From the NCBI GenBank assembly GCA_944392235.1, contig CALXVZ010000002.1:73288-137287 (forward strand): DNA of 64,000 nt, given 5' to 3'. Of the stretch, positions 1,992 to 20,601 are shown piece after piece (position 1 is the first letter of the stretch; each line of letters starts with the position of its first letter). The position numbers were made by a program, and so were the translations under genes. This DNA is from an uncultured Alphaproteobacteria bacterium. GTDB taxonomy: Bacteria; Pseudomonadota; Alphaproteobacteria; RF32; CAG-239. The notes beneath the pieces were generated by a model. The model made no database searches and was not told where the DNA came from. It saw nothing but the letters and a program-made list of their open reading frames with translations.

Positions 1992-4646
1992 TTGATGTTC
2001 AGAAATAAAGATATACGACCGGATAAAATTTTAGAAGAGCGTCTCTTACTACTTGTATTTATGCTAACAGCCACAATAGTAAGTATAGGTTTTCTATTTG
2101 CTTATCCGGCATATCTTCGCCCAGTAATTTTACTAGTATTTTTATTTATTATCCTAAGCATATATATAACCATAACAATACTCCAATCTGGAGAAAGTGC
2201 CATTTTATATGGAGGATTAGCAAATGAGATATTAAAAAATCGCAAAACATGCTACATCATACTAAATTCAGAAGGTAAAACAATTCTGCAAAACCAAATT
2301 GCAAAAGATTTTTTAAAAGAAACCCCTATACTAAAATTTTTAGAAGATAATCTAGTTAAAACAGAAACAAACCAACAAAAACTAAAACAAATTCAATTAT
2401 CAGCAACACATTTTAAAGAAGACACAGTAGAGATTGCCCTAAAATTTAACAACACAGCCATATTTTCCGGAGAAGAATGGTATAGAATAACTCTTCGTCC
2501 AATCAGTTTAAATCAAAAAGACATAAGCGAAATAGATAATTCAAGCAAATTCAATATTAAATACAACACATATCTACTATGGAGTTTAGAAAATATCACT
2601 TCTGAAAAAACAATAAACACCATTTTCCAAGAAGAGAGAAGATCTTTTTACAACTTCCTCAATTTTATGCCAATAGGTTTATATATCTTAAACAATAAAG
2701 GAAAAATTGAATACATAAACAAAACGCTAAGCTTAATTTTAAATACCCCGAAAGAAAACATTTTAGGTAAAGACATCACAGATTTTTTACCTATTACCTC
2801 CGAAAGTATTGAAAAAATAAACAACACCAGCACACAATACATAACCTATATAAAAAATGCGAATAAAGCTCCGCAAGAATATTTAGTAAAAGTCGACCAA
2901 TTTAAACAAGGCAATGAAGTCCAAACAAGAGGAGCCATTATAGGCAATATTCCTACAGATTCGAAACTAAAAATAGCCTATGATGAAGCAATTTCTGAAG
3001 CAAATAGCATATTCAACTTATCACCATTTGGTATGTTGCTCTTAGATACAGAACTTGTAATTAAAAGAGTCAATCAAAAATTTACAGAAATCTTAGGTAT
3101 CCCTTCTTCCTCTCAATTATTAGACAACTATCTAGCCAATTATTTAGATGAGGATAGTATAGGCAAAATTAGAAAACAATTAAATGTCTTTACATCAGAA
3201 ACAGACAAACTCCAGCCGGCCTATTTTGATTTAAATTTAAGAGATAGAAAGAAGAATAAAATACTACGTATATATATCTGCCCTCTATTTAATTCTCCTT
3301 TACAAACAAAAGAGAATATCAAAGGAATTGTTCTGTTTTGTTTAGATACAACTGAACAAAAAAATCTAGAAACCCAATTTGCACAAGCCCAAAAGATGCA
3401 AGCGATGGGACAACTAGCCGGAGGAATAGCTCACGATTTTAATAACTTGCTTACTGCGATGATTGGTTTTTGCGATTTATTATTACAAAAGCACAAAATC
3501 GGAGATTCATCATTTGCCGATATAATTCAAATAAAACAAAATGCAAATTGTGCCGCTGAATTAGTAAAACAACTATTGCAATTTTCAAGAAAACAACCCT
3601 TACAACCAGAACTAAGTGATATAACAGATATATTAACAAACTACACACCTTTATTGAAAAGAACCGTCGGAGAACAAGTTGACTTACACTTTAAGCACGG
3701 TGAAAATTTAGATTATATAAAAGTAGATAAAGTCCAATTTTTGCAAGTTGTATTAAATCTATGCGTAAATGCAAAAGACGCAATGAACAAAAAGGGAGCG
3801 CTGACAATCTCTACGCAAAAAGAAACATTACTTGAGCCATATCACTTTGGAGCTGAAACAATCGAAAGTGGAAGCTTTATCAGAATGGATGTAACAGATA
3901 CAGGATGTGGTATTCCACTAGAAAATCTATCCAGAATATTTGAGCCATTTTTCTCAACTAAACAAAATGTTGTCGGTTCAGGGACTGGATTAGGTTTAGC
4001 TACTGTATACGGAATTGTACGCCAAATGGAAGGCTTTATAAAAGTAAAGAGTACCATAAATGTCGGCACAACTTTTTCAATATATTTACCAGCCTACCCA
4101 ATAGAAACATCTGCCAAAAAAGCAGAAGAAACATCCATGCGTAAGATATTAAATGACAAGAGAGGCAGAGCAATTTTAACACCAGCAGAAGTGCAAACAA
4201 CTAATAAAGACAAAGAAAAAATTATTTTAGGACTAAACTTATCTGCAATTGAAGACCCAGAACAAAAACCCGAAGAGATAGAAAATACAAGAATACTCTT
4301 TGTCGATGATGAGAATTCTGTTCGCACATTTGCCCTACGAGCTCTTCGTAAAAAAGGATATGATGTTATAGGATGCAATTCTGCAGAAAACGCCTTAGAA
4401 ACACTAGAGAATGATAAAAACTTCCAATTGATGATTACAGATATGGTAATGCCTGGACAAAATGGAATTGAACTATCCAAACAAGTTTTAGAAATTTTAC
4501 CGGATATAAAAATCATATTAGCATCAGGATACTCTGAAGACATTTTAAAAGGTGAATTTAATGATATAGATAATTTATCATTTATACCTAAGCCATTCAG
4601 TTTAAGTGATTTAACGCAAAAAGTTTATGAGGTTATGAAGTCATAA
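1992..4646 (+). CDS. cckA: hybrid sensor histidine kinase/response regulator, CckA-like
   Basis: 884 aa. N-terminal TM helices, PAS-like regions, H-box GGIAHDFNNLLTAMIGF, HATPase G-box GTGLGLATVYGIVRQ and a C-terminal receiver (VDDE...ITDMVMPGQNG). The H-box matches alphaproteobacterial CckA; the symbol is tentative. Confidence 0.7.
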   Translation: MMFRNKDIRPDKILEERLLLLVFMLTATIVSIGFLFAYPAYLRPVILLVFLFIILSIYITITILQSGESAILYGGLANEILKNRKTCYIILNSEGKTILQNQIAKDFLKETPILKFLEDNLVKTETNQQKLKQIQLSATHFKEDTVEIALKFNNTAIFSGEEWYRITLRPISLNQKDISEIDNSSKFNIKYNTYLLWSLENITSEKTINTIFQEERRSFYNFLNFMPIGLYILNNKGKIEYINKTLSLILNTPKENILGKDITDFLPITSESIEKINNTSTQYITYIKNANKAPQEYLVKVDQFKQGNEVQTRGAIIGNIPTDSKLKIAYDEAISEANSIFNLSPFGMLLLDTELVIKRVNQKFTEILGIPSSSQLLDNYLANYLDEDSIGKIRKQLNVFTSETDKLQPAYFDLNLRDRKKNKILRIYICPLFNSPLQTKENIKGIVLFCLDTTEQKNLETQFAQAQKMQAMGQLAGGIAHDFNNLLTAMIGFCDLLLQKHKIGDSSFADIIQIKQNANCAAELVKQLLQFSRKQPLQPELSDITDILTNYTPLLKRTVGEQVDLHFKHGENLDYIKVDKVQFLQVVLNLCVNAKDAMNKKGALTISTQKETLLEPYHFGAETIESGSFIRMDVTDTGCGIPLENLSRIFEPFFSTKQNVVGSGTGLGLATVYGIVRQMEGFIKVKSTINVGTTFSIYLPAYPIETSAKKAEETSMRKILNDKRGRAILTPAEVQTTNKDKEKIILGLNLSAIEDPEQKPEEIENTRILFVDDENSVRTFALRALRKKGYDVIGCNSAENALETLENDKNFQLMITDMVMPGQNGIELSKQVLEILPDIKIILASGYSEDILKGEFNDIDNLSFIPKPFSLSDLTQKVYEVMKS

Positions 4647-5383
4647 TGGATAATCGTTATAATGACAAAACCGGACAATATAAAATAAAATTTAGTCCTC
4701 GCAATGACTTAAGCGAAGAAGATTTCATGGTAACTTCGTGCAATGAAAATGCCTATAAAGCCATTAAGATGTGGCCCTACTGGCAACACTTTGCATTAAG
4801 CATTTACGGTCCTGAAAGTTGCGGAAAATCCCATCTTGCTCACATGTGGACAGACAGAATTCAACAATCACTTCCCCGTCCAATACAAATACCAATCATT
4901 GATGCACACAGTTTGAACATGAAAAATGTCAACAAAATCGCTAATGAACACAATTATTTGGTTATTGAAGATATGGACGCAAATATAAATGAAGAAGCTT
5001 TCTTCCATTTATACAATTTCTATAATGGTCCTGAACGATATATACTATTTACATCAGAAGTACCACTGTCAAAAATTCCACTAAAACTACCGGATTTACG
5101 ATCAAGATTAAACATTATTCCAAATATAGAAATAGAACAACCGAATGATGAAATGCTAACGGCTTTAATCGCAAAACTATTTAACGATCGCCAAATAATC
5201 ATCACACAAGAAATGCTTGATTACATATTAAAACATACAGAACGCTCATTTTCTTTTGTAACCAAATTAGTAGAAGAGATAGATGACATATCGTGGACAT
5301 ATGGAAGAGCTGTATCAATTCCTATAATCAAAGAAGCATTAAACAATTTAACAAAGAACCAACAATTGGAATTATTTATATGA
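4646..5383 (+). CDS. hdaA: DnaA-homolog regulatory protein (Hda/HdaA-like AAA+)
   Basis: 245 aa. Walker A-like YGPESCGKSHLAHMW and Hda-like size. The stop overlaps the truB start (ATGA). Confidence 0.55.
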   Translation: MDNRYNDKTGQYKIKFSPRNDLSEEDFMVTSCNENAYKAIKMWPYWQHFALSIYGPESCGKSHLAHMWTDRIQQSLPRPIQIPIIDAHSLNMKNVNKIANEHNYLVIEDMDANINEEAFFHLYNFYNGPERYILFTSEVPLSKIPLKLPDLRSRLNIIPNIEIEQPNDEMLTALIAKLFNDRQIIITQEMLDYILKHTERSFSFVTKLVEEIDDISWTYGRAVSIPIIKEALNNLTKNQQLELFI

Positions 5384-6313: not shown

Positions 6314-6583
6314 ATGTCGATTACAAATGAAAAGAAACAAGAAATTATTGCACAATACGGAACAAAACCGGGCGATACAGGTTCTCCTGAAGTTCAAATT
6401 GCAATCTGGACACACAGAATTAATGCATTAATTGAACACTTCAACACTCATCAAAAAGACCTACACTCACGTTTAGGTTTGATGAAAATGGTAAGTCGCC
6501 GTCGTCACTTGCTTGATCACTTAAAGAAGACAAGTGAAGAAAGATATCAAACATTGATTAAGAAATTAGATTTACGTAAGTAA
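6314..6583 (+). CDS. rpsO: 30S ribosomal protein S15
   Basis: 89 aa with typical S15 sequence ([11 protein letters not shown]...[11 protein letters not shown]). Conserved rpsO-pnp linkage. Confidence 0.95.
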
Positions 6584-6595
6584 TGTTTGAAACAA

Positions 6596-6626
6596 ATAGC
6601 GGGGCAATGGGGCTCCGCTATTTGCA
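6596..6626 (+). promoter_or_regulatory. GC-rich hairpin in the rpsO-pnp intergenic region (terminator/processing-site candidate)
   Basis: aatAGCGGggcaatggggctCCGCTatt stem-loop, unusually GC-rich for this genome. In E. coli this position holds the rpsO terminator and the RNase III site of the pnp leader. Confidence 0.4.
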
Positions 6627-6677: not shown

Positions 6678-8792
6678 ATGGTCAATTGGAATGTGTGCCG
6701 CAAAGAAATAGAATGGGGCGGACGCAAATTAGTATTAGAAACAGGCAAAGTAGCAAAACAAGCAACCGGAGCAGTATGGGCGAGTTATGGAGATACAGTT
6801 GTTGTCGCAACGGTTGTTGCCGCCAAAGAAGTCAAAGCAGATCAAGATTTTTTCCCTTTAACTGTTAACTATCAGGAAAAATATTATGCAACCGGAAAAA
6901 TCCCTGGTGGCTTTATGAAACGTGAAGGTAAACCATCTGAGCATGAAGTATTAGTATCACGTTTAATAGATAGACCAATTCGTCCGTTATTCCCTGATGC
7001 ATTTAAGAATGAAGTCCAAATCATCTGCACAACAATCGCACACGATAAAAAGACCGATTCAGATATATTAGCAATGGTAGCCGCATCAGCAGCATTAGCT
7101 GTTTCCGGCATTCCATTTTTAGGCCCGATTGGAGCAGCAAAAGTTGGCTACATCAATGGCGAATACGTATTAAACCCAACAGTTGAAGAATTGAAAAAAT
7201 CAGAATTGGAATTAACCGTTGCCGGAACAGAAGAAGGCGTTTTGATGGTTGAATCTGAAGCAAACGAACTTTCAGAAGAAACCATGTTAAACGCAGTTAT
7301 GTTTGGTTTTGATAATTTCCAACCAATCATCAAACTTATCAACGAACTAAAGGCTGAAGCAGGCAAAGAAGCATGGGAAGCACCTGTATTTCCAGCTGAA
7401 TTTGACACTTTATACGAAAGAATTGAAAAAGAATTTCGTAGCAAATACGAAGAAGCTTTCAATGAAGTTGACAAGCAAAAACGTGCAACACGCTTAGGAG
7501 AATTGAGTGCCGAAGTAAATGCGACAATTGATCCAGAAAATGAATTGGAAGTTCGTTACTCCTTAGATGCAATTGAAAAATTAATGCACTCGGTAATGAG
7601 AGAAAAAGTATTAACAACAGGAAGACGTATTGATGGACGTGACACAAAGACTGTTCGTCCAATCACATGCGAAGTAGATGTATTACCAACCACTCACGGG
7701 TCAGCAATATTTACCCGTGGTGAAACTCAAGCACTTGTTGTTACAACTTTAGGAACTGCCGAAGATGCACAAATCATCGATGGTTTAATGGATGAAGAAC
7801 GCCAAGAATTTATGTTAAACTACAATTTCCCACCATTTTCTGTTGGCGAATGCGGTAGATTAGGTTCTCCAGGAAGACGCGAAATCGGACATGGAAAATT
7901 GGCTTGGCGTGCAATTCATCCAATGATGCCAAAAGATAAGAGCGTATTCCCCTATACGGTAAGAGTTGTATCAGATATTATGGAATCAAATGGTTCATCA
8001 TCAATGGCAACTGTATGTGGTTCTGTATTATCATTAATGGATGCCGGAGTTCCTTTGAAAAAGCCTGTTGCAGGTATCGCTATGGGTTTAATCAAAGAAG
8101 ATGATGGCAGAGTAGCAATTTTAACCGATATTTTGGGCGATGAAGATCACCTTGGAGATATGGACTTTAAGGTAGCCGGAACAAAAGATGGCGTAACTGC
8201 TTTACAAATGGATATTAAAATCACATCCATTACCAAAGAGATAATGAAAAATGCTTTAGCTCAAGCTCATGAAGGAAGAATTCACATTTTAGGTGAAATG
8301 GCAAAAGCGTTACCAGCACCAAGAGAAGAAATTTCTCCACGTGCTCCACGCATTATTTCTATCAAAATTCCGGTAGATAAAATCCGTGAAGTTATCGGTA
8401 CAGGAGGTAAAGTTATTCGTGAAATCATCGAAAAGACCAATACCAAAATTGATATTGACGATGATGGAACTGTAAATGTAGCTGCTGTTGACAAACAAGA
8501 TGCAGACGCTGCTATTGATATCATTAATGGCATCGTTGCTGTTCCAGAAGAAGGAAAGAACTACCATGGTGTTATAACCAAAATCATGGATTTCGGAGCT
8601 TTCGTTCGTTTCTTAGGAACAACTGAAGGTCTAGTTCACATTTCAGAAGTAAAAAATGAACGAATTGCTTCTGTTAATGATTTCTACAAAGAAGGCGATA
8701 AAATCTGGGTTAAATGCTTAGGCACAGATAATCGCGGTAAAATTAAGCTCTCTGCCAAAAGAGTTAACCAAGAAACTGGTGAAGACGCTTAA
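6678..8792 (+). CDS. pnp: polynucleotide phosphorylase
   Basis: 704 aa. Two RNase PH domains, then KH ([15 protein letters not shown]) and S1 ([15 protein letters not shown]) domains. Confidence 0.95.
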
Positions 8793-12284: not shown

Positions 12285-13358
<1,074 letters not shown>

Positions 13359-13377: not shown

Positions 13378-13722
13378 ATGACGAAAACTGATAAAAGTTT
13401 ACTTGAATTAGTTCAAAAAGTTTTAGATGACAATAAAGCAGAAGATATCGTAACAATAGATTTAAAAGGCAAGACATCTATTGCAAATTACATGGTTATC
13501 GCTAGTGGAACATCAAATCGTCATGTAGCATCTTTAGCAGACAAATTAAAATATGAATTAAAGCAAAATGGCTTTTCTTGTTCATCTGAAGGAGAAGAAA
13601 AAGCAAACTGGGTTCTCATCGATGCATTTGACGTCATCGTTCACATATTCTGCCCAGAAGTAAGAGATTTCTACAATTTGGAAAAAATGTGGGGATCAAT
13701 TGCAGAAATGCGAAAAGCATAA
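13378..13722 (+). CDS. rsfS: ribosomal silencing factor RsfS (Iojap)
   Basis: 114 aa with DIVTIDLKGKTSIANYMVIASGTSNRHVASLADKL. Conserved position after obg. Confidence 0.85.
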   Translation: MTKTDKSLLELVQKVLDDNKAEDIVTIDLKGKTSIANYMVIASGTSNRHVASLADKLKYELKQNGFSCSSEGEEKANWVLIDAFDVIVHIFCPEVRDFYNLEKMWGSIAEMRKA

Positions 13723-13816
13723 GCTTCGATATAAATTTATCGACAAGATCAAAAAAGCACTTGATTTATTATTTCGAAGCGTGTAATTAGGGTGAAGAAA
13801 TAATAAAAAAAGAGAT

Positions 13817-13892
13817 AGGGGTATAGCTCAGTTGGTAGAGCACCGGTCTCCAAAACCGGGTGTCGTGAGTTCGAATCTTACTGCCCCTGCCA
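13817..13892 (+). tRNA. tRNA-Trp (anticodon CCA)
   Basis: Hand-folded cloverleaf: acceptor AGGGGTA/TGCCCCT, D-arm GCTCAGTTGGTAGAGC, anticodon loop CTCCAAA, T-arm GTGAG-TTCGAAT-CTTAC, discriminator G, encoded CCA. Canonical position upstream of secE-nusG. Confidence 0.9.
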
Positions 13893-13926
13893 CTTAAGAT
13901 GAAGACGCTGAAAAGCGTCTTTTTTC
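13884..13926. repeat. direct repeat copy 0 (tRNA-Trp 3' end CCCCTGCCA + CTTAAGATGAAGACGCTGAAAAGCGTCTTTTTT), att-core-like
   Basis: The same ~43 bp recurs at 15081-15122 (identical) and 16031-16072 (3 mismatches). Confidence 0.85.
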
Positions 13927-13930
13927 TTTT
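13901..13930 (+). terminator. rho-independent terminator downstream of tRNA-Trp (part of repeat copy 0)
   Basis: GAAGACGCtgaaaaGCGTCTTTtttcttt: 8-bp stem plus T-run. Confidence 0.6.
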
Positions 13931-13950
13931 TAAATCAATGCGTTATTCAA

Positions 13951-14000
13951 GTCCGTGTAGCGTGTATCAGTTGAGGTTGTCTCCCGCTTTTTACACGGAC
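13951..14000. repeat. cassette-leader inverted repeat GTCCGTGTAG...CTACACGGAC (copy 1)
   Basis: Perfect 9-10 bp arms with a ~32 nt loop. Homologous hairpins lie at the same relative position in cassettes 2 and 3. Confidence 0.7.
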
Positions 14001-14173
14001 TACACAAAATAAAATTCTTTGATTTACAAGAGGTTAATCCAGTATGAATCTGATTTTGTTTTGGGATTTTTGTTCTTTGAATAATAAATTTGCAAAAGAA
14101 AAATAATTGCGATAGACTTCGAAAAATAAGTAATTTAATCTTACAAAAGAGCAGTTCGATTGGGAATTTTGGC

Positions 14174-14641
14174 ATGATATATTTGGTTTATCCTGGATTA
14201 GGAAAAACTTTTTTAGCTAAAAAAGATGTTGGATTTTGTGATATTAATGTTCGCAAATTCAAGGATGCTGACTTTGATAATTATACTTCAAGTTATCGGG
14301 GAACTAAAATTAAAAATATAAATCCAGATTTTCCAAACAATTTACAAAGCTACCTATTGGATAAAATCAAGTTAAACATAATTATTTTAATGGCCTTTAA
14401 GAAAGCAACAATACAGCTCCTTGAGAATATGAAGCTTGATTATGAAATTGTTTTACCCGATGAATCAAAACTTGAAGAATTAAAAGACATCTATAAACAG
14501 CGTGGTGATAGTGATAAGTATATTGAGCAAAATACAACCCATAGGTATAAGGAAACTTTATTTTTAGCCAGACAATCAGGAAAAGTCATTAGGTTTGTTG
14601 CAAAAGGTTTGTGGTTAGAAGATGTTATTATGGAAAAATAG
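14174..14641 (+). CDS. cassette 1 cargo: small P-loop (PGxGKT) kinase-like protein, unknown function
   Basis: YPGLGKTFLAKKD P-loop-like motif near the N-terminus. ~155 aa if ATG 14174 is used (the track alternative is 14090). No further recognisable family. Confidence 0.4.
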   Translation: MIYLVYPGLGKTFLAKKDVGFCDINVRKFKDADFDNYTSSYRGTKIKNINPDFPNNLQSYLLDKIKLNIIILMAFKKATIQLLENMKLDYEIVLPDESKLEELKDIYKQRGDSDKYIEQNTTHRYKETLFLARQSGKVIRFVAKGLWLEDVIMEK

Positions 14642-14756
14642 TTGAGATGAGTTTTACAACCATATTTAATGAAGAAATTGATGTGCTTTGTACTGATTGT
14701 ATGGTCATGGATAATAAAAAGTTTATGGCTTAATTGATTAAAAGGAAAAACAAATA

Positions 14757-15053
14757 ATGAAGGTCATTACAATTTGCGGTTCTTTGAAATTTGAGAAAGA
14801 TATTAAATATTGGGCGGAAAAATTGACCTTAGAGGGAAATTGTGTCTTATCAATTATCTATCCTATCAGTACAGATTTAGGTGTTTATACTTCTGAACAA
14901 CGAAGTTTTTTTGCCGAAGCTCATTACAAAAGAATAGATTTATCTGATGCCCTTTTTGTTGTTAATAAAAATGGATACATCGGCGATAGTACTCAAAAAG
15001 AGATTGAATATGCAAAGGCTCGCGGAAAGGAAGTTATCTTCTTGGAAAATTGA
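14757..15053 (+). CDS. cassette 2 cargo: nucleoside 2-deoxyribosyltransferase-like (Rossmann/SLOG-type) small protein
   Basis: 98 aa. N-terminal MKVITICGSL and C-terminal DALFVVNKNGYIGDSTQKEIEYAKARGKEVIFLE match the D...G..G.T..E..YA...GK.V signature of Nuc_deoxyrib_tr-like proteins. Confidence 0.55.
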   Translation: MKVITICGSLKFEKDIKYWAEKLTLEGNCVLSIIYPISTDLGVYTSEQRSFFAEAHYKRIDLSDALFVVNKNGYIGDSTQKEIEYAKARGKEVIFLEN

Positions 15054-15060
15054 AGAAATA

Positions 15061-15122
15061 GTCCGTATATTGTCCTATATCCCCTGCCACTTAAGATGAA
15101 GACGCTGAAAAGCGTCTTTTTT
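15061..15122. repeat. direct repeat copy 1 (cassette right end TAGTCCGTATATTGTCCTATAT + tRNA-3'-end/terminator core)
   Basis: 15081-15122 is identical to 13884-13925. The preceding 20 bp is shared with copy 2. Confidence 0.85.
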
Positions 15123-15145
15123 ATTATAAATCACAAGTCAGTTTA

Positions 15146-15195
15146 GTCCATGTAAGATATGTTTAATGAAGCCAATTCCCGCTTGTTACACGGAC
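15146..15195. repeat. cassette-leader inverted repeat GTCCATGTAA...TTACACGGAC (copy 2)
   Basis: Arms differ from copy 1 at 2 positions. Same position relative to the core repeat. Confidence 0.65.
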
Positions 15196-15329
15196 TTTCA
15201 TTTCTAAGTTTTTTTATTTTATAAGTGCTTAGCTAAGTGGGAATCCTATTAGGTTTCGGGATATTTTTGTTTTACAATAAAGGATTTTTCATTTACAATA
15301 TATCCTAGTTGAAAAAGGGGAGTTTTAGG

Positions 15330-16001
15330 ATGTCAATCTCAATAGAAGATGCAGAAAATATGGTTGATAATGTAAGGAAAAGGTGGATTGCACTTGGGCG
15401 TAAACCAGAGACCTTATATATGTATGACAATCATATAAAAGGTGCGGCAGTTGTTGCAAAAACAATAGCTACGCATTTGGAAAGCATAAATCCAGAACAA
15501 GCCTATGTTTGCGCTTTTTTACATGATATTGCAAAAATTGATGAATCTCCAGAATCTATGCTTGGGCGCTTTCATGGGATATTAGGATATGAAATGTTAA
15601 AAGATAAAGATTCCGCTGTTGCACGTGCGTGTTTATTACATGAAATTCCTTTAAATAGAATTACAAAATATACAGAAGCAAAATTTTTAGGTAATACAAA
15701 AGATTTTGATTTTGTCGTTGATTTTATCTCCAACACATCTTTAACTGATGAAGATATGCTTATCCAACTTTCAGATAGCATGGCTAATAAATCAAGTATT
15801 GTAACATTGGAACAGCGGCAGGAAGAATATGAGGCAAGATTTAATAAAAAGTTGCCTCCTGAATTTACTGAACCATATTTAGAAATAAAAGCATATTTTG
15901 ATAAAAAATTAGGTTTTAATTTGTATGAGCTGTTTCCAAGCCTTAATCAAAATTCTAGAAATACATATAAAATAGTCACAGAAAATATTAGGTATCGGTA
16001 A
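15330..16001 (+). CDS. cassette 3 cargo: HD-domain phosphohydrolase
   Basis: H...AFLHDIAK HD motif. RBS AAAGGGGA 8 nt upstream of ATG 15330 (the track start is 15309). Confidence 0.6.
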   Translation: MSISIEDAENMVDNVRKRWIALGRKPETLYMYDNHIKGAAVVAKTIATHLESINPEQAYVCAFLHDIAKIDESPESMLGRFHGILGYEMLKDKDSAVARACLLHEIPLNRITKYTEAKFLGNTKDFDFVVDFISNTSLTDEDMLIQLSDSMANKSSIVTLEQRQEEYEARFNKKLPPEFTEPYLEIKAYFDKKLGFNLYELFPSLNQNSRNTYKIVTENIRYR

Positions 16002-16009
16002 ATGAGGTA

Positions 16010-16078
16010 GTCCGTATATTATCCTATAAGCCCTGCCATTCAAGATGAAGACGCTGAAAAGCATCTTTTTTTCTTTTT
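16010..16078. repeat. direct repeat copy 2 (GTCCGTATATTATCCTATAAG + CCCTGCCATTCAAGATGAAGACGCTGAAAAGCATCTTTTTTT), slightly degenerate
   Basis: 3 substitutions relative to copies 0/1; the terminator stem carries one mismatch. Confidence 0.8.
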
Positions 16079-16097
16079 AAATCAATGCGTTATTCAA

Positions 16098-16147
16098 GTC
16101 CATATAGCGTGTATCCATTGAGATTGTTTTTCTCTTGATACACGGAC
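16098..16147. repeat. cassette-leader inverted repeat GTCCATATAG...TACACGGAC (copy 3)
   Basis: The ~95 bp after the repeat (16078-16170) is ~85% identical to 13930-14020. Confidence 0.65.
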
Positions 16148-16315
16148 CGCTCAAAATAAAATTTGTTGTTTTTTAAATAGTTAGCATGGTGAAACCTGAT
16201 TTTGTGGAGTTTATGCTCTAATTTTTTGATAGACTGACAGTCATTATTTATTGACACGATTATTCTTTTGTGCTATATACAATAATGAAGTTTATTCTAT
16301 ATGAGGAGAAATAAA

Positions 16316-16756
16316 ATGACTGAATATATTAAGTATTCAAATGATGAGGAACATGCTAATTTGTTTCTAAAAGTTGAGGATGATAAAGTTGTTGATTCTG
16401 TGAGAGATAAAGTTTATGCCGATAGGTATGGCCATAGTATTACCAGAAATTTGATTGGTATGAATATGGCTGATGTTGAGGAAATAATGAATTATGATGA
16501 TAAAATGTCTGCTCCTCAAAAGATTAGTGTTAAAGAGTTTTTAGAAGCAAAATCTAACTTTTTGAAAATTCAAAAAAAGGAGCATCAAATTGATGTTGCA
16601 AGAGCTAATACAACAAGAATACAAGATACAGGTACAGATAAATTGGCAGAAAAAGAACGAAAATTAAAGCGCAAATTAAATCCTGACCGTTATGAAAGTG
16701 AAGAAGCTATGGTTGACCAAAGAGTAAAAATTGCAAAAAAATATATGACTCGATAG
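16316..16756 (+). CDS. cassette cargo: hypothetical lysine-rich protein, unknown function
   Basis: RBS AGGAG 7 nt upstream of ATG 16316. No recognisable domain. Confidence 0.4.
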   Translation: MTEYIKYSNDEEHANLFLKVEDDKVVDSVRDKVYADRYGHSITRNLIGMNMADVEEIMNYDDKMSAPQKISVKEFLEAKSNFLKIQKKEHQIDVARANTTRIQDTGTDKLAEKERKLKRKLNPDRYESEEAMVDQRVKIAKKYMTR

Positions 16757-16789
16757 ATTTTTGAGCTAATTGTCGTAATTGGTTATTGA

Positions 16790-16878
16790 GCAAAAGGTGA
16801 AGGTTCGAAACCGGCAAGAGAGTTCGATGCTGAGGCTCACGAAAAACACGAAAAAGAAGTTATCTTTTGGGAAAATTA
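16790..16878 (+). pseudogene. decayed 3' fragment of a second deoxyribosyltransferase-like cassette gene
   Basis: Reads AKGEGSKPAREFDAEAHEKHEKEVIFWEN* against the intact GDSTQKEIEYAKARGKEVIFLEN* of the 14757..15053 protein. Preceded by an in-frame stop at 16787. Confidence 0.5.
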
Positions 16879-16894
16879 AAAGTATATGCAGATG

Positions 16895-16930
16895 AAAAAA
16901 CCCGTAGAACAATAGTATCCACGGGTTTTT
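16895..16930. terminator. weak bidirectional hairpin terminator candidate
   Basis: aaaaaaCCCGTagaacaatagtatccACGGGttttt: 5-bp stem, long loop, flanking A/T runs. Confidence 0.3.
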
Positions 16931-17285
16931 GTTAAGTTAATAATTCCAGTTAATTAACACATACAGTCTTTAGGACAAAAAACTCCAAGGATTTGACTGT
17001 ATTCCTAAACTCTTGTTGGTGAACGGATCTTTACATCGAGGAAAATCCATCTAATGCCACTTAGAACTACAATTACTTTCCTCTTTAAGTAATTTAGCAC
17101 TAGAAAGAGTAAATATTGGGGTTCACCATAATCCTGAATTATTTTTAACTGGGATATTACATAAATAGTAAGAGCCAATAAACAAAGCAGGATTAGTATT
17201 CCACAGTAATTCATAAATTATAAGATTTATCGTCACTAAGCTATAAAAATTAAAAATAAAAGTCAATGTTTTATTATTGATAAAA

Positions 17286-17350
17286 GTCCCTGGATTATCC
17301 TATATTCCCTACCAATAAAAAAGGAAGTCTTAAAAGAGACTTCCTTTTTT
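17286..17350. repeat. degenerate 4th copy of the cassette-end/tRNA-core repeat followed by a perfect terminator hairpin
   Basis: GTCCCTGGATTATCCTATATTCCCTACCA versus GTCCGTATATTGTCCTATATCCCCTGCCA, then GGAAGTCTtaaaagAGACTTCCtttttt. Same core+terminator architecture as copies 0-2. Confidence 0.6.
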
Positions 17351-17351
17351 A

Positions 17352-18161
17352 TTATAAAATATCTGTCATCATATTATCCTTTGAAGATTTCAAATTCATC
17401 TCGCTAAAACGTATGACAGATAGTTCTTGCTTAGAGCTTATTTTAAAGGCAATGACTGGATAGATTGTTTTTCCAATTAAATGCCCTACTAAAAAATCTT
17501 CGTTTTCTTGCGGATTTTTCAGCTCACCAGGAAAAAGATGTGTAACATTTAATTCATCATAAAAACGATGCAATGCACATGGATAAATAATATATTTTTT
17601 TCCTGTCTTTTGTGTTAAAAGCCAGATAGGTTCATCATAACTCGTTATTTTTAATTCTATGTTTTTTACTCCTTTAATAACTTCTTTAAAAGGAAAGTTA
17701 TTCAATATATCAGTCGGAGTCAAAAACAAGAGAGGACAATCAGTTCGATGCTCGTAATAACAACTCATCCCTAAAAACTGAGGAAGATAAATTTGTTCTC
17801 TTTTTTCAGAGATTGCAAACTTAGTTACAACGCTTTTACCTTTGATTTGCCACTGACGAAAAACGGAAGTCCACGCATTGGAATTATTTTTTTCTATAAA
17901 ATCATCAATATCAAATCCATTTCCTACATTGACGCTCTCGAGCGAGCAGAATTCATGATTAAATATCAAGTATTTAATATATTCTTTACCTAATATTGTC
18001 ATAGGGATAATCCATTGAGGTGTAACATCTGGAGAAGATGCTCTCAATATAATATCCTGCTCTCTGCATAATTTATATTCCAGTCCCTTTGCTTGAGAGC
18101 AAAGATAACCAACCAACGCTAAAATATCTTTAGCTTCGGTAATAAGTTCTATTGTCTTCAT
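17352..18161 (-). CDS. hypothetical protein (269 aa), island cargo
   Basis: No recognisable motif. Lies immediately downstream of the macro-domain gene on the same strand. Confidence 0.4.
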   Translation of the reverse strand: MKTIELITEAKDILALVGYLCSQAKGLEYKLCREQDIILRASSPDVTPQWIIPMTILGKEYIKYLIFNHEFCSLESVNVGNGFDIDDFIEKNNSNAWTSVFRQWQIKGKSVVTKFAISEKREQIYLPQFLGMSCYYEHRTDCPLLFLTPTDILNNFPFKEVIKGVKNIELKITSYDEPIWLLTQKTGKKYIIYPCALHRFYDELNVTHLFPGELKNPQENEDFLVGHLIGKTIYPVIAFKISSKQELSVIRFSEMNLKSSKDNMMTDIL

Positions 18162-18294
18162 AATATAATATTTTAATAGTTTAACATCATAATTTTATTT
18201 TACCTAAGTATATGGCTTCAAGGTAAAATGTAAAGAATTTATAATAAAAAAGGCTTTCCCTCCAAAGAGAAAGCCTTTCTTCATGTAGATAACA

Positions 18295-18903
18295 CTATTC
18301 AGGCAAGAGTCCCATTCCAATAAGCCATTCAGCTAAATTGATTTTCTTTTCGCCAGTTTCAATTTTAAAATCAAAAGATTGACTAGCTAAAACAGTTTCT
18401 GCCGGAACAGTTGAATTCCGAAAAATAACCAATCTGACCTCTTTCACGCAAGAATCAGGATAACGAGTACTAAACTGATCAATCGCAGAAAAAATCACCC
18501 GAGCAGATTGGTCCTGAGTTAAACGTCCTATAATGCCTGTTCCAAGTTCAGGAATAGCTATTCTACTAAACTTACGTTTATCAGCTTCTTGCAGAACACG
18601 CAAGATAGCCTCAAACACCACTCTGAACTGTTCAGACTTTCCAGCCCCTGCCGTCGCAACATGAGCCAACTGAATATTATTTTTTCCAGAATCTGTAATC
18701 ATAATCTCGCCATATTTTAACGGCTTTTTCTGCACAGCAAATTCGTAACGATCCAATCCTGAACACATTCCGTTTGCTGCTATTGCACCACCAACTCCGC
18801 CATAAGAAGCACCGTTTGTAAACTCCGGAACAACAATACAATCGACATTTTCCATAGCTATGTTACCATTTTTTACGATAACATCAACATTTCTAATCTT
18901 CAT
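18295..18903 (-). CDS. macro-domain (ADP-ribose binding/hydrolase) protein
   Basis: NVDCIVVPEFTNGASYGGVGGAIAANG matches the macro-domain N..A.....GGGV.GAI signature. Start preferred at MKIRNV (18903); the track start is 18978. Confidence 0.55.
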   Translation of the reverse strand: MKIRNVDVIVKNGNIAMENVDCIVVPEFTNGASYGGVGGAIAANGMCSGLDRYEFAVQKKPLKYGEIMITDSGKNNIQLAHVATAGAGKSEQFRVVFEAILRVLQEADKRKFSRIAIPELGTGIIGRLTQDQSARVIFSAIDQFSTRYPDSCVKEVRLVIFRNSTVPAETVLASQSFDFKIETGEKKINLAEWLIGMGLLPE

Positions 18904-19097
18904 AATCTGTAATCTTTTAGTTAGACATAATGATAATTGAACAAAAAGGAGTTTAACACAAAGAATCATCCTTTTCAAGAACTAAAGTAGCATAAATATC
19001 TCTTCGATAAAAATATTGACATTCGTTACTCTAACTATAAGATAAAATTCGATAAATTATAATTTATATATCATTTAACACCTAAAAATATAAGTTT

Positions 19098-19607
19098 ATG
19101 GAAAATTACGTATTATTACATGGCAACCATTACTATAAATGGTGGCATTTTTTTCTAAGAGATTCAGAGAAATATTTCCCCTATCCTATCGTTTACGAAG
19201 ATGGTTTGATAAGCAATTTAAAATCAGACAAAGAAAACAGAAAAGTCTGGGGCTTCATTTACAAGAAGCACATTATTTCTATTTACGCAGAGAAGATGTC
19301 CCCTAAAGAAGCCAGAGAATTCTGTAAGAAAAACATTTTCGCAGGAAAAAACTACTGTATAGTTCCGATAGCGATAATGAAAAAGATCCTACAAAACACT
19401 TCTCTTATCAACTCATTAATTAAGGAGTTAGGAGGAACTCTCATCGAATCTCAATGGTATATGGCTGCAAATGACCGCTGGCTGGATAAAGATTTTATAT
19501 TAGATAAAAAAATGTGCGGAGTTCATCCTCAAATCAAACCAGTAAGAAATTGCTGCTTCATTGATGAAGAAACAAACGCATATTTTTATCCGGCAATTGT
19601 GTTATAA
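19098..19607 (+). CDS. hypothetical protein (169 aa), island cargo
   Basis: No recognisable motif. Confidence 0.4.
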   Translation: MENYVLLHGNHYYKWWHFFLRDSEKYFPYPIVYEDGLISNLKSDKENRKVWGFIYKKHIISIYAEKMSPKEAREFCKKNIFAGKNYCIVPIAIMKKILQNTSLINSLIKELGGTLIESQWYMAANDRWLDKDFILDKKMCGVHPQIKPVRNCCFIDEETNAYFYPAIVL

Positions 19608-19645: not shown

Positions 19646-19865
19646 CACAACTTGAACCATTTAAATTCCATTTTCCGACATCTCAACTCAAAGTCTCAAG
19701 CTATTAATTGAGCAAACAAATAATATATTTATTGACATCTAAAAAATAATTTACTATGTTTCTCGCATTAGTATGGGTATATAAAAACGAGAACATTCTA
19801 CCAAAATGAAATAATCGCAGTAATATATCCTACCATTTTTCAAACATTAATAGAGTGGAAGAGCT

Positions 19866-20057
19866 ATGGGAAACACAAGTCCGATACAATTTTTTAGACA
19901 AGTTAAACAAGAAGTAAAAAAGGTTACATGGCCATCTAAAAAAGAAGTAACACGAGCAACAATTATGGTAATGATAATCGTTGCAATTGCTTCTGCATTT
20001 TTCTTCTGTGTAGATATGATATTTGCCGCCATAGTTCGTGCAATATTTGAATATTAG
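19866..20057 (+). CDS. secE: preprotein translocase subunit SecE
   Basis: 63 aa with a single C-terminal TM helix (KKVTWPSKKEV...). Immediately upstream of nusG. Confidence 0.85.
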   Translation: MGNTSPIQFFRQVKQEVKKVTWPSKKEVTRATIMVMIIVAIASAFFFCVDMIFAAIVRAIFEY

Positions 20058-20067
20058 GAGATGCCAC

Positions 20068-20601
20068 ATGACAGCACGTTGGTACGTTGTTAACGTATAT
20101 TCTGGATCTGAGAAAAAAGTTGCCGAATCTATCAGAGAGCAAGCCGTCTTAAAGAAGATGGATGATAAGATTTTGGAAGTATTAGTTCCAACCGAACAAG
20201 TAGTAGAAGTTCGTAAAGGAACAAAAGTAAACGCAGAACACAAATTCTTCCCAGGATATATTCTAGTAAAGATGGAAATGAGTGATGATGCATGGCATAT
20301 CGTAAAAGATACACCTCGTGTTAGTGGTTTCTTAGGAAGTCACAACAAGCCACAAGCAATTAGTGATGCTGAAGTAAAAAGAATCATGACACAAATTGAA
20401 GAAGGTGTTGAACGTCCATCTACTGAAATTTACTTTGAAGTTGGCGAACAGATAAAAGTAACAGATGGTCCATTTGCATCATTTGTTGGAGTAGTTGAAG
20501 AAGTTGACAATGAAAAGTCACGTGTAAAAGTTTCTGTATCAATCTTCGGACGTTATACTCCAGTAGAATTAGAGTTCAGTCAAGTAGAAAAAATTGCTTA
20601 A
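20068..20601 (+). CDS. nusG: transcription termination/antitermination factor NusG
   Basis: NGN domain WYVVNVYSGSEKKV plus a C-terminal KOW domain. RBS AGGAG 7 nt upstream of ATG 20068. Confidence 0.9.
   Translation: MTARWYVVNVYSGSEKKVAESIREQAVLKKMDDKILEVLVPTEQVVEVRKGTKVNAEHKFFPGYILVKMEMSDDAWHIVKDTPRVSGFLGSHNKPQAISDAEVKRIMTQIEEGVERPSTEIYFEVGEQIKVTDGPFASFVGVVEEVDNEKSRVKVSVSIFGRYTPVELEFSQVEKIA

What the first reader, a model, noticed from the sequence alone, without database searches (positions are those of the whole stretch)
13930..16250. Conserved cassette-leader module: GTCCRTRTA inverted-repeat hairpin plus a shared downstream motif; candidate recombination site/promoter
Immediately after each core repeat there is a hairpin with arms GTCCGTGTAG/CTACACGGAC (13951-14000), GTCCATGTAA/TTACACGGAC (15146-15195) and GTCCATATAG/TACACGGAC (16098-16147). 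The 13930-14020 and 16078-16170 segments are ~85% identical. The same GTCCGTATA word occurs once, in direct orientation, at each cassette's right end. Further downstream a second shared motif (CTGATTTTGT...GGGATWTTTGTT) occurs at 14050-14074, 15253-15273 and 16196-16213. Conserved, structured, position-fixed elements of this kind are what recombinase-binding sites (attC-like) or a shared cassette promoter would look like.
Basis: seen in the sequence. Interest (0 to 1): 0.6.

Follow-up and report, generated by a model that had tools for sequence, protein, structure and literature searches.

The report
Recombination module of tRNA-anchored gene cassettes
The repeated hairpin "leader" is the conserved junction between small mobile gene cassettes stacked behind a tryptophan-tRNA gene in an uncultured gut alphaproteobacterium, and it most likely holds docking sites for a recombinase encoded elsewhere, which resembles an integron without being one.

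Summary
GTCCRTRTA occurs 8 times in 64 kb (0.87 expected), and every copy lies in 13951-16147.

Three ~200-bp modules each follow a copy of the tRNA-Trp 3' end plus terminator. They separate three ~1-kb cassettes inserted between tRNA-Trp and secE-nusG.

The same module sits at tRNA-Trp in at least 10 other uncultured gut/rumen Alphaproteobacteria assemblies. Its order is:
- right-end site a;
- pseudo-tRNA end and terminator;
- IHF-like site;
- sites b and c, inverted and exactly 32 bp apart;
- a leader ending in TTTTGGGAT.

One cassette (HD protein) is 100% identical over 846 nt in another species' array. There it sits at a different position, and identity stops at site c and at site a.

The inverted arms show no compensatory changes, and the right arm is invariant. 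They therefore look like protein-binding sites, not a structure-defined attC.

A shared promoter is not supported. Some cargo is antisense to the leader, and each cassette has promoter-like hexamers of its own further downstream.

No recombinase gene is annotated in the ~66 kb of the 70.8-kb source contig for which I have gene tables.

Best reading: an att-type recombination module of integrase-less cassettes served in trans. This is a new variant of tRNA-linked tandem integrative elements that works somewhat like an integron. The recombinase and the exact crossover point remain unknown.

The parts
13817..13892 (+). tRNA-Trp (CCA), anchor of the array. Its last 9 nt, CCCCTGCCA, are repeated at each junction. 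Its T-arm 5' half, GTCGTGAGT (13863-13871), occupies the position of site a at the first junction.
   Evidence: ARAGORN; Rfam; alignment of the right ends with the tRNA 3' third
13884..13925 (+). Junction J0: core (tRNA 3' end) plus Rho-independent terminator
   Evidence: Compensatory changes in the terminator stem across 16 modules
13933..13945 (+). IHF-consensus-like site AATCAATGCGTTA in the spacer of J0. The same site is at 16080-16092 in J2; it is absent in J1.
   Evidence: WATCAANNNNTTR at the same module position in 11 of 16 modules; background 0.094 per kb per strand
13951..14000 (+). J0 inverted 9-mers: site b GTCCGTGTA (13951-13959) and site c TACACGGAC (13992-14000), 32-nt gap
   Evidence: ssDNA fold z = -4.2 (top strand) and -4.6 (bottom strand)
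14001..14075 (+). J0 leader ending in CTGATTTTGTTTTGGGATTTTTGTT (motif d)
14174..15053 (+). Cassette 1 cargo: 155-aa P-loop protein (14174-14641) and 98-aa nucleoside-deoxyribosyltransferase-like protein (14757-15053)
   Evidence: An 85% identical cassette is in L001, at a different array position
15061..15079 (+). Right end of cassette 1: site a GTCCGTATA plus TTGTCCTATA
15081..15122 (+). Junction J1 core plus terminator, 42 nt identical to J0
15146..15195 (+). J1 sites b (GTCCATGTA) and c (TACACGGAC). The 32-nt loop is identical to that of L005, where a different cassette follows.
15196..15273 (+). J1 leader (a different sequence type) ending in TTTCGGGATATTTTTG
15183..16028 (+). Unit that is 100% identical (846 nt) to L014 from another species' array: TTGTTACACGGAC, leader, HD-domain gene (15330-16001), GTCCGTATATTATCCTATA
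16010..16028 (+). Right end of cassette 2: site a plus TTATCCTATA
16031..16071 (+). Junction J2 core (CCCTGCCA) plus terminator (1 mismatch)
16098..16147 (+). J2 sites b (GTCCATATA) and c (TACACGGAC)
   Evidence: The minimum-energy fold uses an alternative inner stem, not the GTCC arms
16148..16213 (+). J2 leader with a partial motif d (CCTGATTTTGTGG)
16316..17214 (.). Cassette 3 region. It looks like a fusion of decayed cassettes: a 146-aa gene (16316-16756, +), a remnant of the 3' end of cassette 1's second gene (16850-16885), and a 69-aa gene (17005-17214, -) that forms a separate cassette in L007.
17286..17350 (+). Terminal junction J3: degenerate right end GTCCCTGGATTATCCTATA, degenerate core CCCTACCA, and a different terminator. 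No hairpin follows.
   Evidence: Equivalent terminal junctions in L001, L005, L006 and L007

Best explanation
The 'leader' is the junction module of a tandem array of small, integrase-less integrative gene cassettes. The array is anchored at the 3' end of tRNA-Trp, between that tRNA and secE-nusG.

Each junction reads, in order:
- site a (GTCCGTATA + TTRTCCTATA), which is a degenerate copy of the tRNA T arm;
- a copy of the tRNA 3' end, CCCCTGCCA;
- a Rho-independent terminator;
- an IHF-consensus site;
- site b, a 32-bp gap, then site c (GTCCGTGTA...TACACGGAC);
- a ~75-nt leader ending in TTTTGGGAT;
- the cargo.

I infer that the three GTCCGTRTA copies are binding sites for a site-specific recombinase encoded outside the array. 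The most likely candidate is a tyrosine integrase that assembles with a DNA-bending protein, as at lambda-type attP sites. This enzyme would insert, excise and reshuffle the cassettes.

The tRNA-end copy restores the tRNA after insertion. The terminator copy both ends the tRNA transcript and insulates each cassette. Cargo genes appear to use promoter-like sequences of their own.

Shown here: the anatomy, its conservation across species, cassette mobility between species, and similarity breakpoints that coincide with sites c and a.

Inferred, not shown: protein binding, the identity of the recombinase and the exact strand-exchange point.
For: (1) All 8 GTCCRTRTA copies lie in the array, with a fixed 32-bp b-c gap and an a-b distance of 85-88 bp.

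(2) The same module lies next to tRNA-Trp or upstream of secE-nusG in 7 MAGs of uncultured gut/rumen Alphaproteobacteria and in further metagenome contigs (L014, L020, L021, L041), each with different cargo.

(3) The HD cassette is 100% identical over window 15183-16028 in L014. There it is the first cassette after a different tRNA-Trp allele and is followed by a different cassette. The flanking modules are only ~79% identical to the window's.

(4) Conversely, module J1 is 91% identical to the L005 module, with an identical loop. Similarity ends exactly after site c, where a different cassette begins.

(5) Terminal junctions in five genomes keep site a and a decayed core, followed by a different terminator and no hairpin (I read this as the native tRNA terminator). 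This fits insertion at the tRNA 3' end, with the hairpin brought in by cassettes.

(6) Arm variation is one-sided and the right arm is invariant, with 0 compensatory pairs. The terminator stem, by contrast, covaries.

(7) An IHF-consensus site at a fixed position in 11/16 modules has variable inner bases.

(8) The right end plus core aligns to the last ~32 nt of the tRNA.
Against: - No integrase or other recombinase is annotated in the ~66 kb of the 70.8-kb source contig covered by gene tables, nor in the 18.8 kb held of the 25-kb contig (L041). The only recombinase seen in related islands is an Mpi-type invertase with its own, different inverted repeats.
- A classical attP x attB crossover inside the tRNA-identity block predicts that a cassette keeps its own upstream module. 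The HD cassette does not.
- Other similarity breakpoints fall at the GGGAT motif (L001 vs window) or inside the leader (L021). Homologous exchange at short conserved blocks could therefore contribute.
- L014 is a 1.75-kb short-read metagenome scaffold. Its right-hand join, about 20 nt of shared sequence, could be an assembly chimera. The left join shares only about 13-15 nt, so a chimera is unlikely there.
- No circular intermediate or empty site has been observed.
Confidence: 0.6

Rival explanations
1. Integron-like attC analogue. The module, or the b-c hairpin, folds as single-stranded DNA, and a structure-specific recombinase recombines it at a platform site next to tRNA-Trp. The tRNA-proximal hairpin would act as an attI equivalent.
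For: - Cassette size and order resemble an integron array.
- tRNA-proximal modules of six genomes form a tight cluster, 84-93% identical, whatever the first cassette is.
- Two breakpoints lie at site c.
- The J0 hairpin folds significantly better than shuffles, z about -4.2 to -4.6.
- The G-to-A changes in the left arms of J1 and J2 would be G-T wobbles on the bottom strand.
Against: - There are no attC core boxes.
- The stem has 0 compensatory changes, and left-arm mutations are not compensated (L006b has 3).
- J2 does not use the GTCC arms in its minimum-energy fold, and J1 folds weakly, z = -1.8.
- The module downstream of the HD cassette is not co-inherited with it.
- No intI-like gene is adjacent.
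- Terminal junctions show tRNA-end (core) recombination.
Confidence: 0.15
2. Passive repeats. The modules are relics of old integrations or segmental duplications of the tRNA downstream region. Present-day shuffling would occur by RecA-dependent homologous recombination, or by uptake of foreign DNA flanked by modules. The 9-mers would have no recombinase.
For: - The modules are mosaic. Core/terminator, spacer, loop and leader have incongruent similarity patterns.
- Breakpoints are also seen at the GGGAT motif and inside the leader.
- No recombinase was found.
- Some within-genome module similarity (J0 and J2 are 87% identical; the L014 spacers are identical) suggests gene conversion.
Against: - Strong purifying selection acts on specific short blocks. 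TACACGGAC is invariant in 15 of 16 modules, the 32-bp gap is exact, and the IHF-like site is fixed, all across genomes of 33-44% GC.
- Two breakpoints fall in identity tracts of only about 13-20 nt, although a 40-nt identical core/terminator tract lies nearby.
Confidence: 0.15
3. Regulatory element. The leader is a shared promoter or operator region, and the inverted 9-mers bind an array-wide repressor or silencer that controls cassette expression.
For: - The position is fixed, between a terminator and the cargo.
- TTTACA and GAAT blocks are conserved in one leader type.
- Inverted-repeat half-sites are typical of operators.
Against: - The promoter scan shows no enrichment and no conserved -35/-10 pair in the leader.
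- Better promoter-like sequences lie in cargo-specific DNA: 15271-15299 and, read directly from the sequence, TTGACA-17-TATATA beginning near 16251.
- The same leader precedes antisense cargo in L005 and L007.
- A third 9-mer lies at the 3' end of each cassette.
- A 32-bp gap between half-sites is atypical for an operator.
- There is no Rfam match and no conserved RNA structure in the leader.
Confidence: 0.07
4. A REP/MITE-like selfish palindromic repeat that happens to lie between genes.
For: - The module is flanked by inverted 9-mers (a...c).
- In L007 this symmetry extends to 25 nt.
Against: - The module is confined to one locus, with no copy elsewhere in the 64-kb window.
- No similar sequence was found in the phage or plasmid collections.
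- It always has the same orientation and always contains the tRNA-end copy.
- No target-site duplication is present.
Confidence: 0.03

Closest known systems
Tandem accretion of integrative elements at tRNA/tmRNA genes, including integrase-less cis-mobilizable elements (CIMEs; reviewed in PMC5704250) and Dehalococcoides ssrA genomic islands (PMC3146451)
   Same: - Elements are stacked head-to-tail behind a small-RNA gene.
- Each is bounded by a copy of that gene's 3' end.
- Decayed copies lie at the far end of the array.
- Members without a recombinase depend on an enzyme supplied in trans.
   Different: - Here the units are ~1-3.5 kb with one to five genes, and all of them lack a recombinase.
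- They share a ~200-bp structured module, with three copies of one 9-mer at fixed spacing.
- No parent ICE, IME or phage with the same ends was found.
- The Dehalococcoides islands each carry their own serine recombinase.
Lambda-type attP architecture of tyrosine integrases (arm-type sites plus IHF sites around a core; established knowledge)
   Same: - A short repeated word lies on both sides of the core, in direct and inverted orientation.
- An IHF-consensus site lies between the core and the distal sites.
- About 250 bp is conserved in total.
- The tRNA 3'-end identity block restores the tRNA.
   Different: - No integrase is linked.
- The observed similarity breakpoints lie at the repeated word (a and c), not inside the tRNA-identity block.
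- Binding has not been tested.
Integron cassette arrays (attC/attI/IntI; established knowledge)
   Same: - Small, mostly single-gene cassettes sit in one orientation at a fixed chromosomal platform.
- An imperfect-palindrome element lies at every junction.
- Cargo differs between related genomes.
   Different: - There is no intI, no attC core boxes, and no structure-only conservation.
- The cassettes appear to have their own promoter-like sequences (not tested) and carry tRNA-end/terminator copies.
- The platform is a tRNA gene.
Tycheposons of Prochlorococcus (bioRxiv 10.1101/2020.12.28.424599)
   Same: - tRNA-anchored islands are built by successive integrations.
- Partial tRNA copies are scattered through the island.
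- Cargo behaves as a 'plug-in' cassette.
   Different: - Tycheposons carry a tyrosine recombinase and usually a replication module.
- They are larger than these cassettes.
- They have no GTCCGTRTA module.

Membership tests
Integron attC site | Inverse core / core boxes RYYYAAC ... GTTRRRY at the ends of an imperfect palindrome | tested here: not met
   The arms are GTCCRTRTA / TACACGGAC. No GTTRRRY boxes are seen in the sequence or in the alignment of 16 modules
Integron attC site | Structure conserved rather than sequence (covarying stem, extrahelical bases) | tested here: not met
   10 stem pairs with 0 compensatory changes. The right arm is invariant and left-arm changes break pairs. J2 folds through an alternative stem
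Integron attC site | Array adjacent to intI, attI and Pc; cassettes promoterless | tested here: not met
   No integrase Pfam hit in the gene tables covering ~66 kb of the source contig. Promoter-like sites specific to the cargo lie downstream of the leader
tRNA-targeting integrative element (tyrosine-integrase att sites) | Direct repeats of the tRNA 3' end bound each element | tested here: met
   CCCCTGCCA plus terminator at 13884, 15081 and 16031, and a decayed copy at 17307
tRNA-targeting integrative element (tyrosine-integrase att sites) | Integrase gene in the element or demonstrably in the same genome | tested here: not met
   None in the window/source contig or in related loci. The rest of the genome was not available
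tRNA-targeting integrative element (tyrosine-integrase att sites) | Repeated arm-type sites and an IHF site flanking the core | tested here: inconclusive
   The sequence pattern fits: three 9-mers at fixed spacing, and an IHF consensus in 11/16 modules. Protein binding cannot be tested here
tRNA-targeting integrative element (tyrosine-integrase att sites) | Crossover inside the att identity block, so each element keeps its own arms | tested here: inconclusive
   Terminal junctions fit this. The HD cassette, however, shares neither flanking module with its copy in L014
Cis-mobilizable element (CIME) | att-flanked, lacks recombination/transfer genes, and derives from and is mobilised by a related ICE/IME | tested here: inconclusive
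   First two features met. No related integrase-bearing element with these ends was found in the genome, viral, metagenome, phage or plasmid searches
Tycheposon | Carries a tycheposon-clade tyrosine (or large serine) recombinase, usually with a replication module | tested here: not met
   No such genes in any cassette
Sigma-70 promoter shared by cassettes | Conserved -35/-10 hexamers at a fixed leader position, upstream of sense-oriented cargo | tested here: not met
   17 promoter-like sites found vs 18.7 expected, none at a conserved leader position. Cargo is antisense to the leader in L005 and L007
REP/MITE | Many dispersed copies, terminal inverted repeats, target-site duplication | tested here: not met
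   Only three copies, all in the array
Known RNA family (Rfam) | Match to a curated covariance model | tested here: not met
   Only the tRNA reaches its family threshold (gathering score) in 13600-17600
Mpi-type inverton | Inverted repeats recognised by a serine master invertase flank a promoter segment | tested here: not met
   The invertase is present only in the L004 and L007 islands. Its 31-nt inverted repeats differ from the 9-mers. All 16 loops have the same orientation

The most novel reading that the evidence does not exclude
This may be a second kind of gene-cassette platform, independent of integrons. A fixed docking module behind tRNA-Trp would alternate with cargo units that are bounded by inverted copies of one 9-mer (site c on the left, site a on the right). 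An unlinked recombinase could cross over at like sites (a with a, c with c). Cassettes and modules would then reassort freely, and cassettes could be exchanged between species in a natural form of recombinase-mediated cassette exchange.
Probability: 0.25. Interest if true: 0.8.

Novelty: new variant of a known kind. Interest (0 to 1): 0.58.

Why it matters
Uncultured low-GC gut and rumen Alphaproteobacteria are poorly known. How they gain and lose accessory genes has not, as far as my searches show, been described.

This locus shows a compact, orderly way of stacking small accessory genes behind one tRNA gene. The cargo includes restriction-modification enzymes, a nuclease matching a candidate defence family, and HD-domain and nucleotide-related proteins. 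The sequence module involved is conserved across species, and at least one cassette is shared, base for base, between species.

If a dedicated recombinase is found, the system would be a simple, programmable cassette-docking platform, comparable in logic to integrons but built from tRNA-att parts. The module itself is also a ready search handle for finding such arrays, and their enzyme, in metagenomes.

Tried and rejected
- Viral-contig scan for the hairpin. It hit only ~13.8-kb linear phage-like contigs whose terminal repeats carry GTCCGT-N5-ACGGAC palindromes. I judged this coincidental.
- Viral scan for CCCGCTTGTTACACGGAC. It found a prophage integrated in tRNA-Trp with a 52-nt partial-tRNA att site, so a different specificity. 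It is not the cassette recombinase source.
- Metagenome scan for right end plus core. Only one more array was found (L020).
- BLAST of the module against phage and plasmid collections. No match.
- Candidate recombinases in related islands:
  - The 406/217/182-aa proteins next to the leader have an integrase-like N-terminal motif plus an HTH domain. They have no catalytic domain and sit next to methyltransferase or nuclease genes, so I read them as part of restriction-modification cargo.
  - The small serine recombinase in L004 and L007 is an Mpi-family invertase with its own 31-nt inverted repeats.
- Proteins without Pfam hits in the window. I inspected four of the larger ones (419, 343, 380 and 362 aa) by eye. 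None looks like a recombinase; the 419- and 343-aa proteins begin with signal-peptide-like sequences.
- Conserved RNA or DNA structure in the leader. An apparent inverted repeat (CCCAAAACAAAATC / GATTTTGTTTTGGG) in one leader type gives no significant fold (z from 0 to -0.9) and no consensus structure.
- Homologues of the HD protein on long contigs. They are ordinary chromosomal genes with no module nearby. One set revealed a second array family with different junctions.
- PADLOC scan of the window cargo. No confident defence-system hit.
Full report
**What is in the sequence**

The window carries obg (12294-13358), rsfS (13378-13722) and a tRNA-Trp gene (13817-13892), with secE and nusG near 19830-20601. 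About 6 kb of accessory DNA lies between the tRNA and secE.

The first 3.4 kb of that DNA is a head-to-tail array. The last 9 nt of the tRNA (CCCCTGCCA) and the terminator that follows it (GAAGACGCTGAAAAGCGTCTTTTTT) recur at 15081-15122 and 16031-16071. A decayed copy with a different terminator is at 17307-17350.

GTCCRTRTA occurs 8 times in the 64-kb window against 0.87 expected. All 8 copies lie in 13951-16147.
- Six copies form three inverted pairs with an identical 32-nt gap.
- Two copies lie, in direct orientation, about 20 nt before the tRNA-end copies, at the right ends of cassettes 1 and 2.

A profile built from the module finds three full copies in the window and nothing elsewhere. 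Small corrections: the exact arms are 9 nt, and the left arms of copies 2 and 3 carry A-C mismatches.

**Anatomy of a junction**

I aligned 16 modules, from the window and from relatives. The order at each junction is:
- site a, GTCCGTATA followed by TTRTCCTATA;
- two variable bases;
- CCCTGCCA;
- the terminator;
- a spacer, TTTATAAATCAAT....TTA;
- site b, GTCCGTGTA;
- a 32-nt gap whose 3' part, TTTCCCGCTTGT, is conserved;
- site c, TACACGGAC;
- a ~75-nt leader, which occurs in at least two sequence types;
- the cargo.

The distance from a to b is 85-88 bp. The spacer matches the IHF consensus WATCAANNNNTTR at the same position in 11 of 16 modules. The four inner bases vary while the flanks stay fixed, and the background rate is 0.094 per kb per strand.

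Site a plus the core aligns with the last ~32 nt of tRNA-Trp (T arm plus acceptor 3' strand), with a 3-nt deletion. At the first junction the tRNA's own GTCGTGAGT sits where site a would be.

**Distribution**

A scan of 185,579 species-representative genomes for the hairpin pattern found 7 loci. All are uncultured gut, rumen or colon Alphaproteobacteria or 'proteobacteria' MAGs with 33-39% GC. In every locus where the context is visible, the module is next to tRNA-Trp and/or upstream of nusG.

Further copies came from metagenome contigs: L014, L020, L021 and L041/L042, the last at 44% GC.

The window itself is part of ENA ERZ24773551 contig NODE_365, 70.8 kb long.

Cargo differs from genome to genome. 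It includes C5 methyltransferases, a PD-(D/E)XK nuclease matching the candidate defence family PDC-M36A, a GGDEF protein, an L,D-transpeptidase-like protein, GNAT acetyltransferases, HD and macro-domain proteins, and many unknowns.

**Evidence for mobility**

The HD cassette (window cassette 2) is 100% identical over 846 nt, window 15183-16028, to part of scaffold L014 from another study.

In L014 it is the first cassette, directly after a tRNA-Trp with a different T-arm sequence. A different cassette follows it.

Identity starts within TTGTTACACGGAC (site c). It ends right after GTCCGTATATTATCCTATA (site a), before the dinucleotide that precedes the core. The flanking modules differ:
- The L014 upstream module is 79% identical to window J1.
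- The same L014 module is 90-91% identical to the tRNA-proximal modules of L003, L007 and L020.

The converse case also exists. Window J1 and the L005 module are 91% identical, with an identical 32-nt loop. Similarity stops exactly after site c, where unrelated leaders and cargo begin.

Cassette 1 has an 85% identical counterpart in L001. There it is the last cassette of the array rather than the first.

**Direction of assembly**

In five genomes the far end of the array is a junction with three features: site a, a decayed core (CCCTACCA, CTCCTGCCA, TTCTACCA and similar) and a different terminator (I read it as the native one). No hairpin follows.

That is what integration at the tRNA 3' end predicts. 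The original tRNA tail is pushed outward, and the hairpin-bearing arm comes in with the cassettes.

**Structure or sequence?**

RNAalifold on the 16 modules gives two helices.
- The terminator stem has compensatory changes in 6 of its 9 pairs. It is a real structure under selection.
- The GTCC stem has none. All variation is in the left arm and breaks pairing (A-C mismatches in J1 and J2; three mismatches in L006b). TACACGGAC is invariant apart from one 1-nt deletion.

Folding as single-stranded DNA gives mixed results:

| Copy | z-score (top strand / bottom strand) | Note |
|---|---|---|
| J0 | -4.2 / -4.6 | clearly better than shuffles |
| J1 | -1.8 / -2.7 | weak |
| J2 | -3.1 / -2.7 | the minimum-energy fold uses a different inner stem and ignores the GTCC arms |

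The leader after site c has no significant fold (z from 0 to -0.9) and no consensus structure. Rfam finds nothing but the tRNA.

The arms therefore behave as sequence-specific sites in inverted orientation at a fixed distance, not as a structure-defined attC.

**Promoter?**

Sigma-70-like sites are not enriched in 13700-17500 (17 found, 18.7 expected). None lies at a conserved leader position.

Promoter-like hexamers lie further downstream in cargo-specific sequence. One is TTTACA-17-TACAAT at 15271-15299. A second, TTGACA-17-TATATA beginning near 16251, I read directly from the sequence.

In L005 and L007 the same leader is followed by cargo genes on the opposite strand. The leader is therefore not simply the cassettes' promoter.

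Each terminator copy lies just after the preceding cassette. I infer that it ends that cassette's transcript and insulates the next one.

**The recombinase**

None was found.
- Gene tables covering ~66 kb of the 70.8-kb source contig (the ~60 kb of the window from about 4.2 kb onward, plus flanks) show no integrase, resolvase or transposase domain.
- The 18.8 kb held of the 25-kb contig (L041) shows none either.
- Of the window proteins without Pfam hits, the four larger ones I inspected do not look like recombinases.
- In L002, L004 and L020 the first gene after the leader has an integrase-like N-terminal motif plus an HTH. It has no catalytic domain and sits next to methyltransferase or nuclease genes.
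- L004 and L007 carry an Mpi-family master DNA invertase, 275 bits against a cut-off of 272. In L007 it lies in a 3.1-kb segment flanked by its own 31-nt inverted repeats, which are unrelated to the 9-mers.

The enzyme must therefore act in trans from elsewhere in the genome, or from a helper element.

**Mechanism: commitment and caveats**

I think the module is most likely an att-type recombination site. The GTCCGTRTA copies would be recombinase-binding sites on both sides of a tRNA-derived core, helped by an IHF-type bend, and served by an unlinked integrase. My confidence is about 0.6.

The simple lambda-like picture, with a crossover only inside the tRNA-identity block, does not explain why cassettes and modules reassort with breakpoints at a and c. 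There are two possibilities:
- The enzyme can also exchange strands at like 9-mer sites. This is the novel reading, with a probability of about 0.25.
- Secondary homologous exchange shuffles the blocks. Other breakpoints, at the GGGAT motif (L001) and inside the leader (L021), would fit this.

The identity tracts at the two best-defined breakpoints are only about 13-20 nt long. A 40-nt identical core/terminator tract lies next to them. That argues for site-specific events.

One caveat applies: L014 is a short metagenome scaffold, and its right-hand join could be an assembly chimera.

**Comparison with known systems**

The closest known kinds are:
- tandem accretion at tRNA/tmRNA genes;
- integrase-less cis-mobilizable elements (PMC5704250);
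- Dehalococcoides ssrA islands (PMC3146451);
- tycheposon islands (bioRxiv 10.1101/2020.12.28.424599).

In function the locus resembles an integron. It fails the defining tests for an attC/IntI system that could be made here.

I found no description of this module in the paper library and no similar sequence in the phage or plasmid collections. I rate it a new variant of a known kind.

Noticed in passing
L008-L011 (e.g. L010 1-120 and 13690-13816): Linear phage-like contigs of ~13.8 kb from one metagenome. Their inverted terminal repeats are packed with GTCCGT-N5-ACGGAC palindromes. They matched the hairpin pattern, probably by coincidence.
   Followed up: partly
L021 1-3012 (end of 39.5-kb IMG/VR contig): A prophage (PLD-like protein, holin/lysozyme genes) integrated into the tRNA-Trp of a relative. 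Its attR is a 52-nt partial tRNA, followed by the host terminator and GTCC hairpin. tRNA-Trp is thus a hot spot used by at least two integration specificities.
   Followed up: partly
L037 2500-2570; L038 24-71 and 2952-3000; L039 70-130: A second cassette-array family in related low-GC contigs. Its junctions are ...CAGCCA plus the terminator GTCGTCATTCTGGCGAC, with no GTCC 9-mers. The same HD-homologue cassette has different upstream neighbours (Fic vs a type IIG restriction-modification enzyme). Here identity starts at the core, as the classical model predicts.
   Followed up: partly
L004 1985-2590; L007 3716-4312, with inverted repeats at 3447-3477 and 6572-6602: An Mpi-family master DNA invertase lies inside the islands. 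In L007 a 3.1-kb segment holding the invertase and a 636-aa ORF is flanked by 31-nt inverted repeats that are 90% complementary. The outer repeat lies in the tRNA-proximal leader region. The invertase segment has opposite orientation in L004 and L007.
   Followed up: partly
window 16850-16885 and 16937-17321: Cassette 3 contains a remnant of the 3' end of cassette 1's second gene. It also contains a 69-aa minus-strand gene that forms its own 0.5-kb cassette in L007 (81% identical). Cassette 3 therefore looks like a fusion of decayed cassettes.
   Followed up: partly
L005 ~7050-7110 and ~5100-5170 (minus strand): Another element end, GATAACCGACGCAGCAAC..GTCATCGTCTGCCCCTGC, occurs twice. Each copy abuts a 12-nt tRNA-end copy. 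This suggests a third element type using the same tRNA.
   Followed up: no
window 17352-19607: The genes between the terminal junction and secE are a 269-aa unknown, a macro-domain protein and a 169-aa unknown. They are replaced by other genes in the close relative L001, so this stretch is also variable although it has no recognisable junctions.
   Followed up: no
Logan contigs L013 (1198 nt), L015 (1004 nt) and the P0001-P0017 contigs of ~1 kb: Many homologues of the HD cassette sit on cassette-sized contigs of about 1 kb that break inside the repeated core/terminator. This is an assembly signature that could be used to find such arrays.
   Followed up: no
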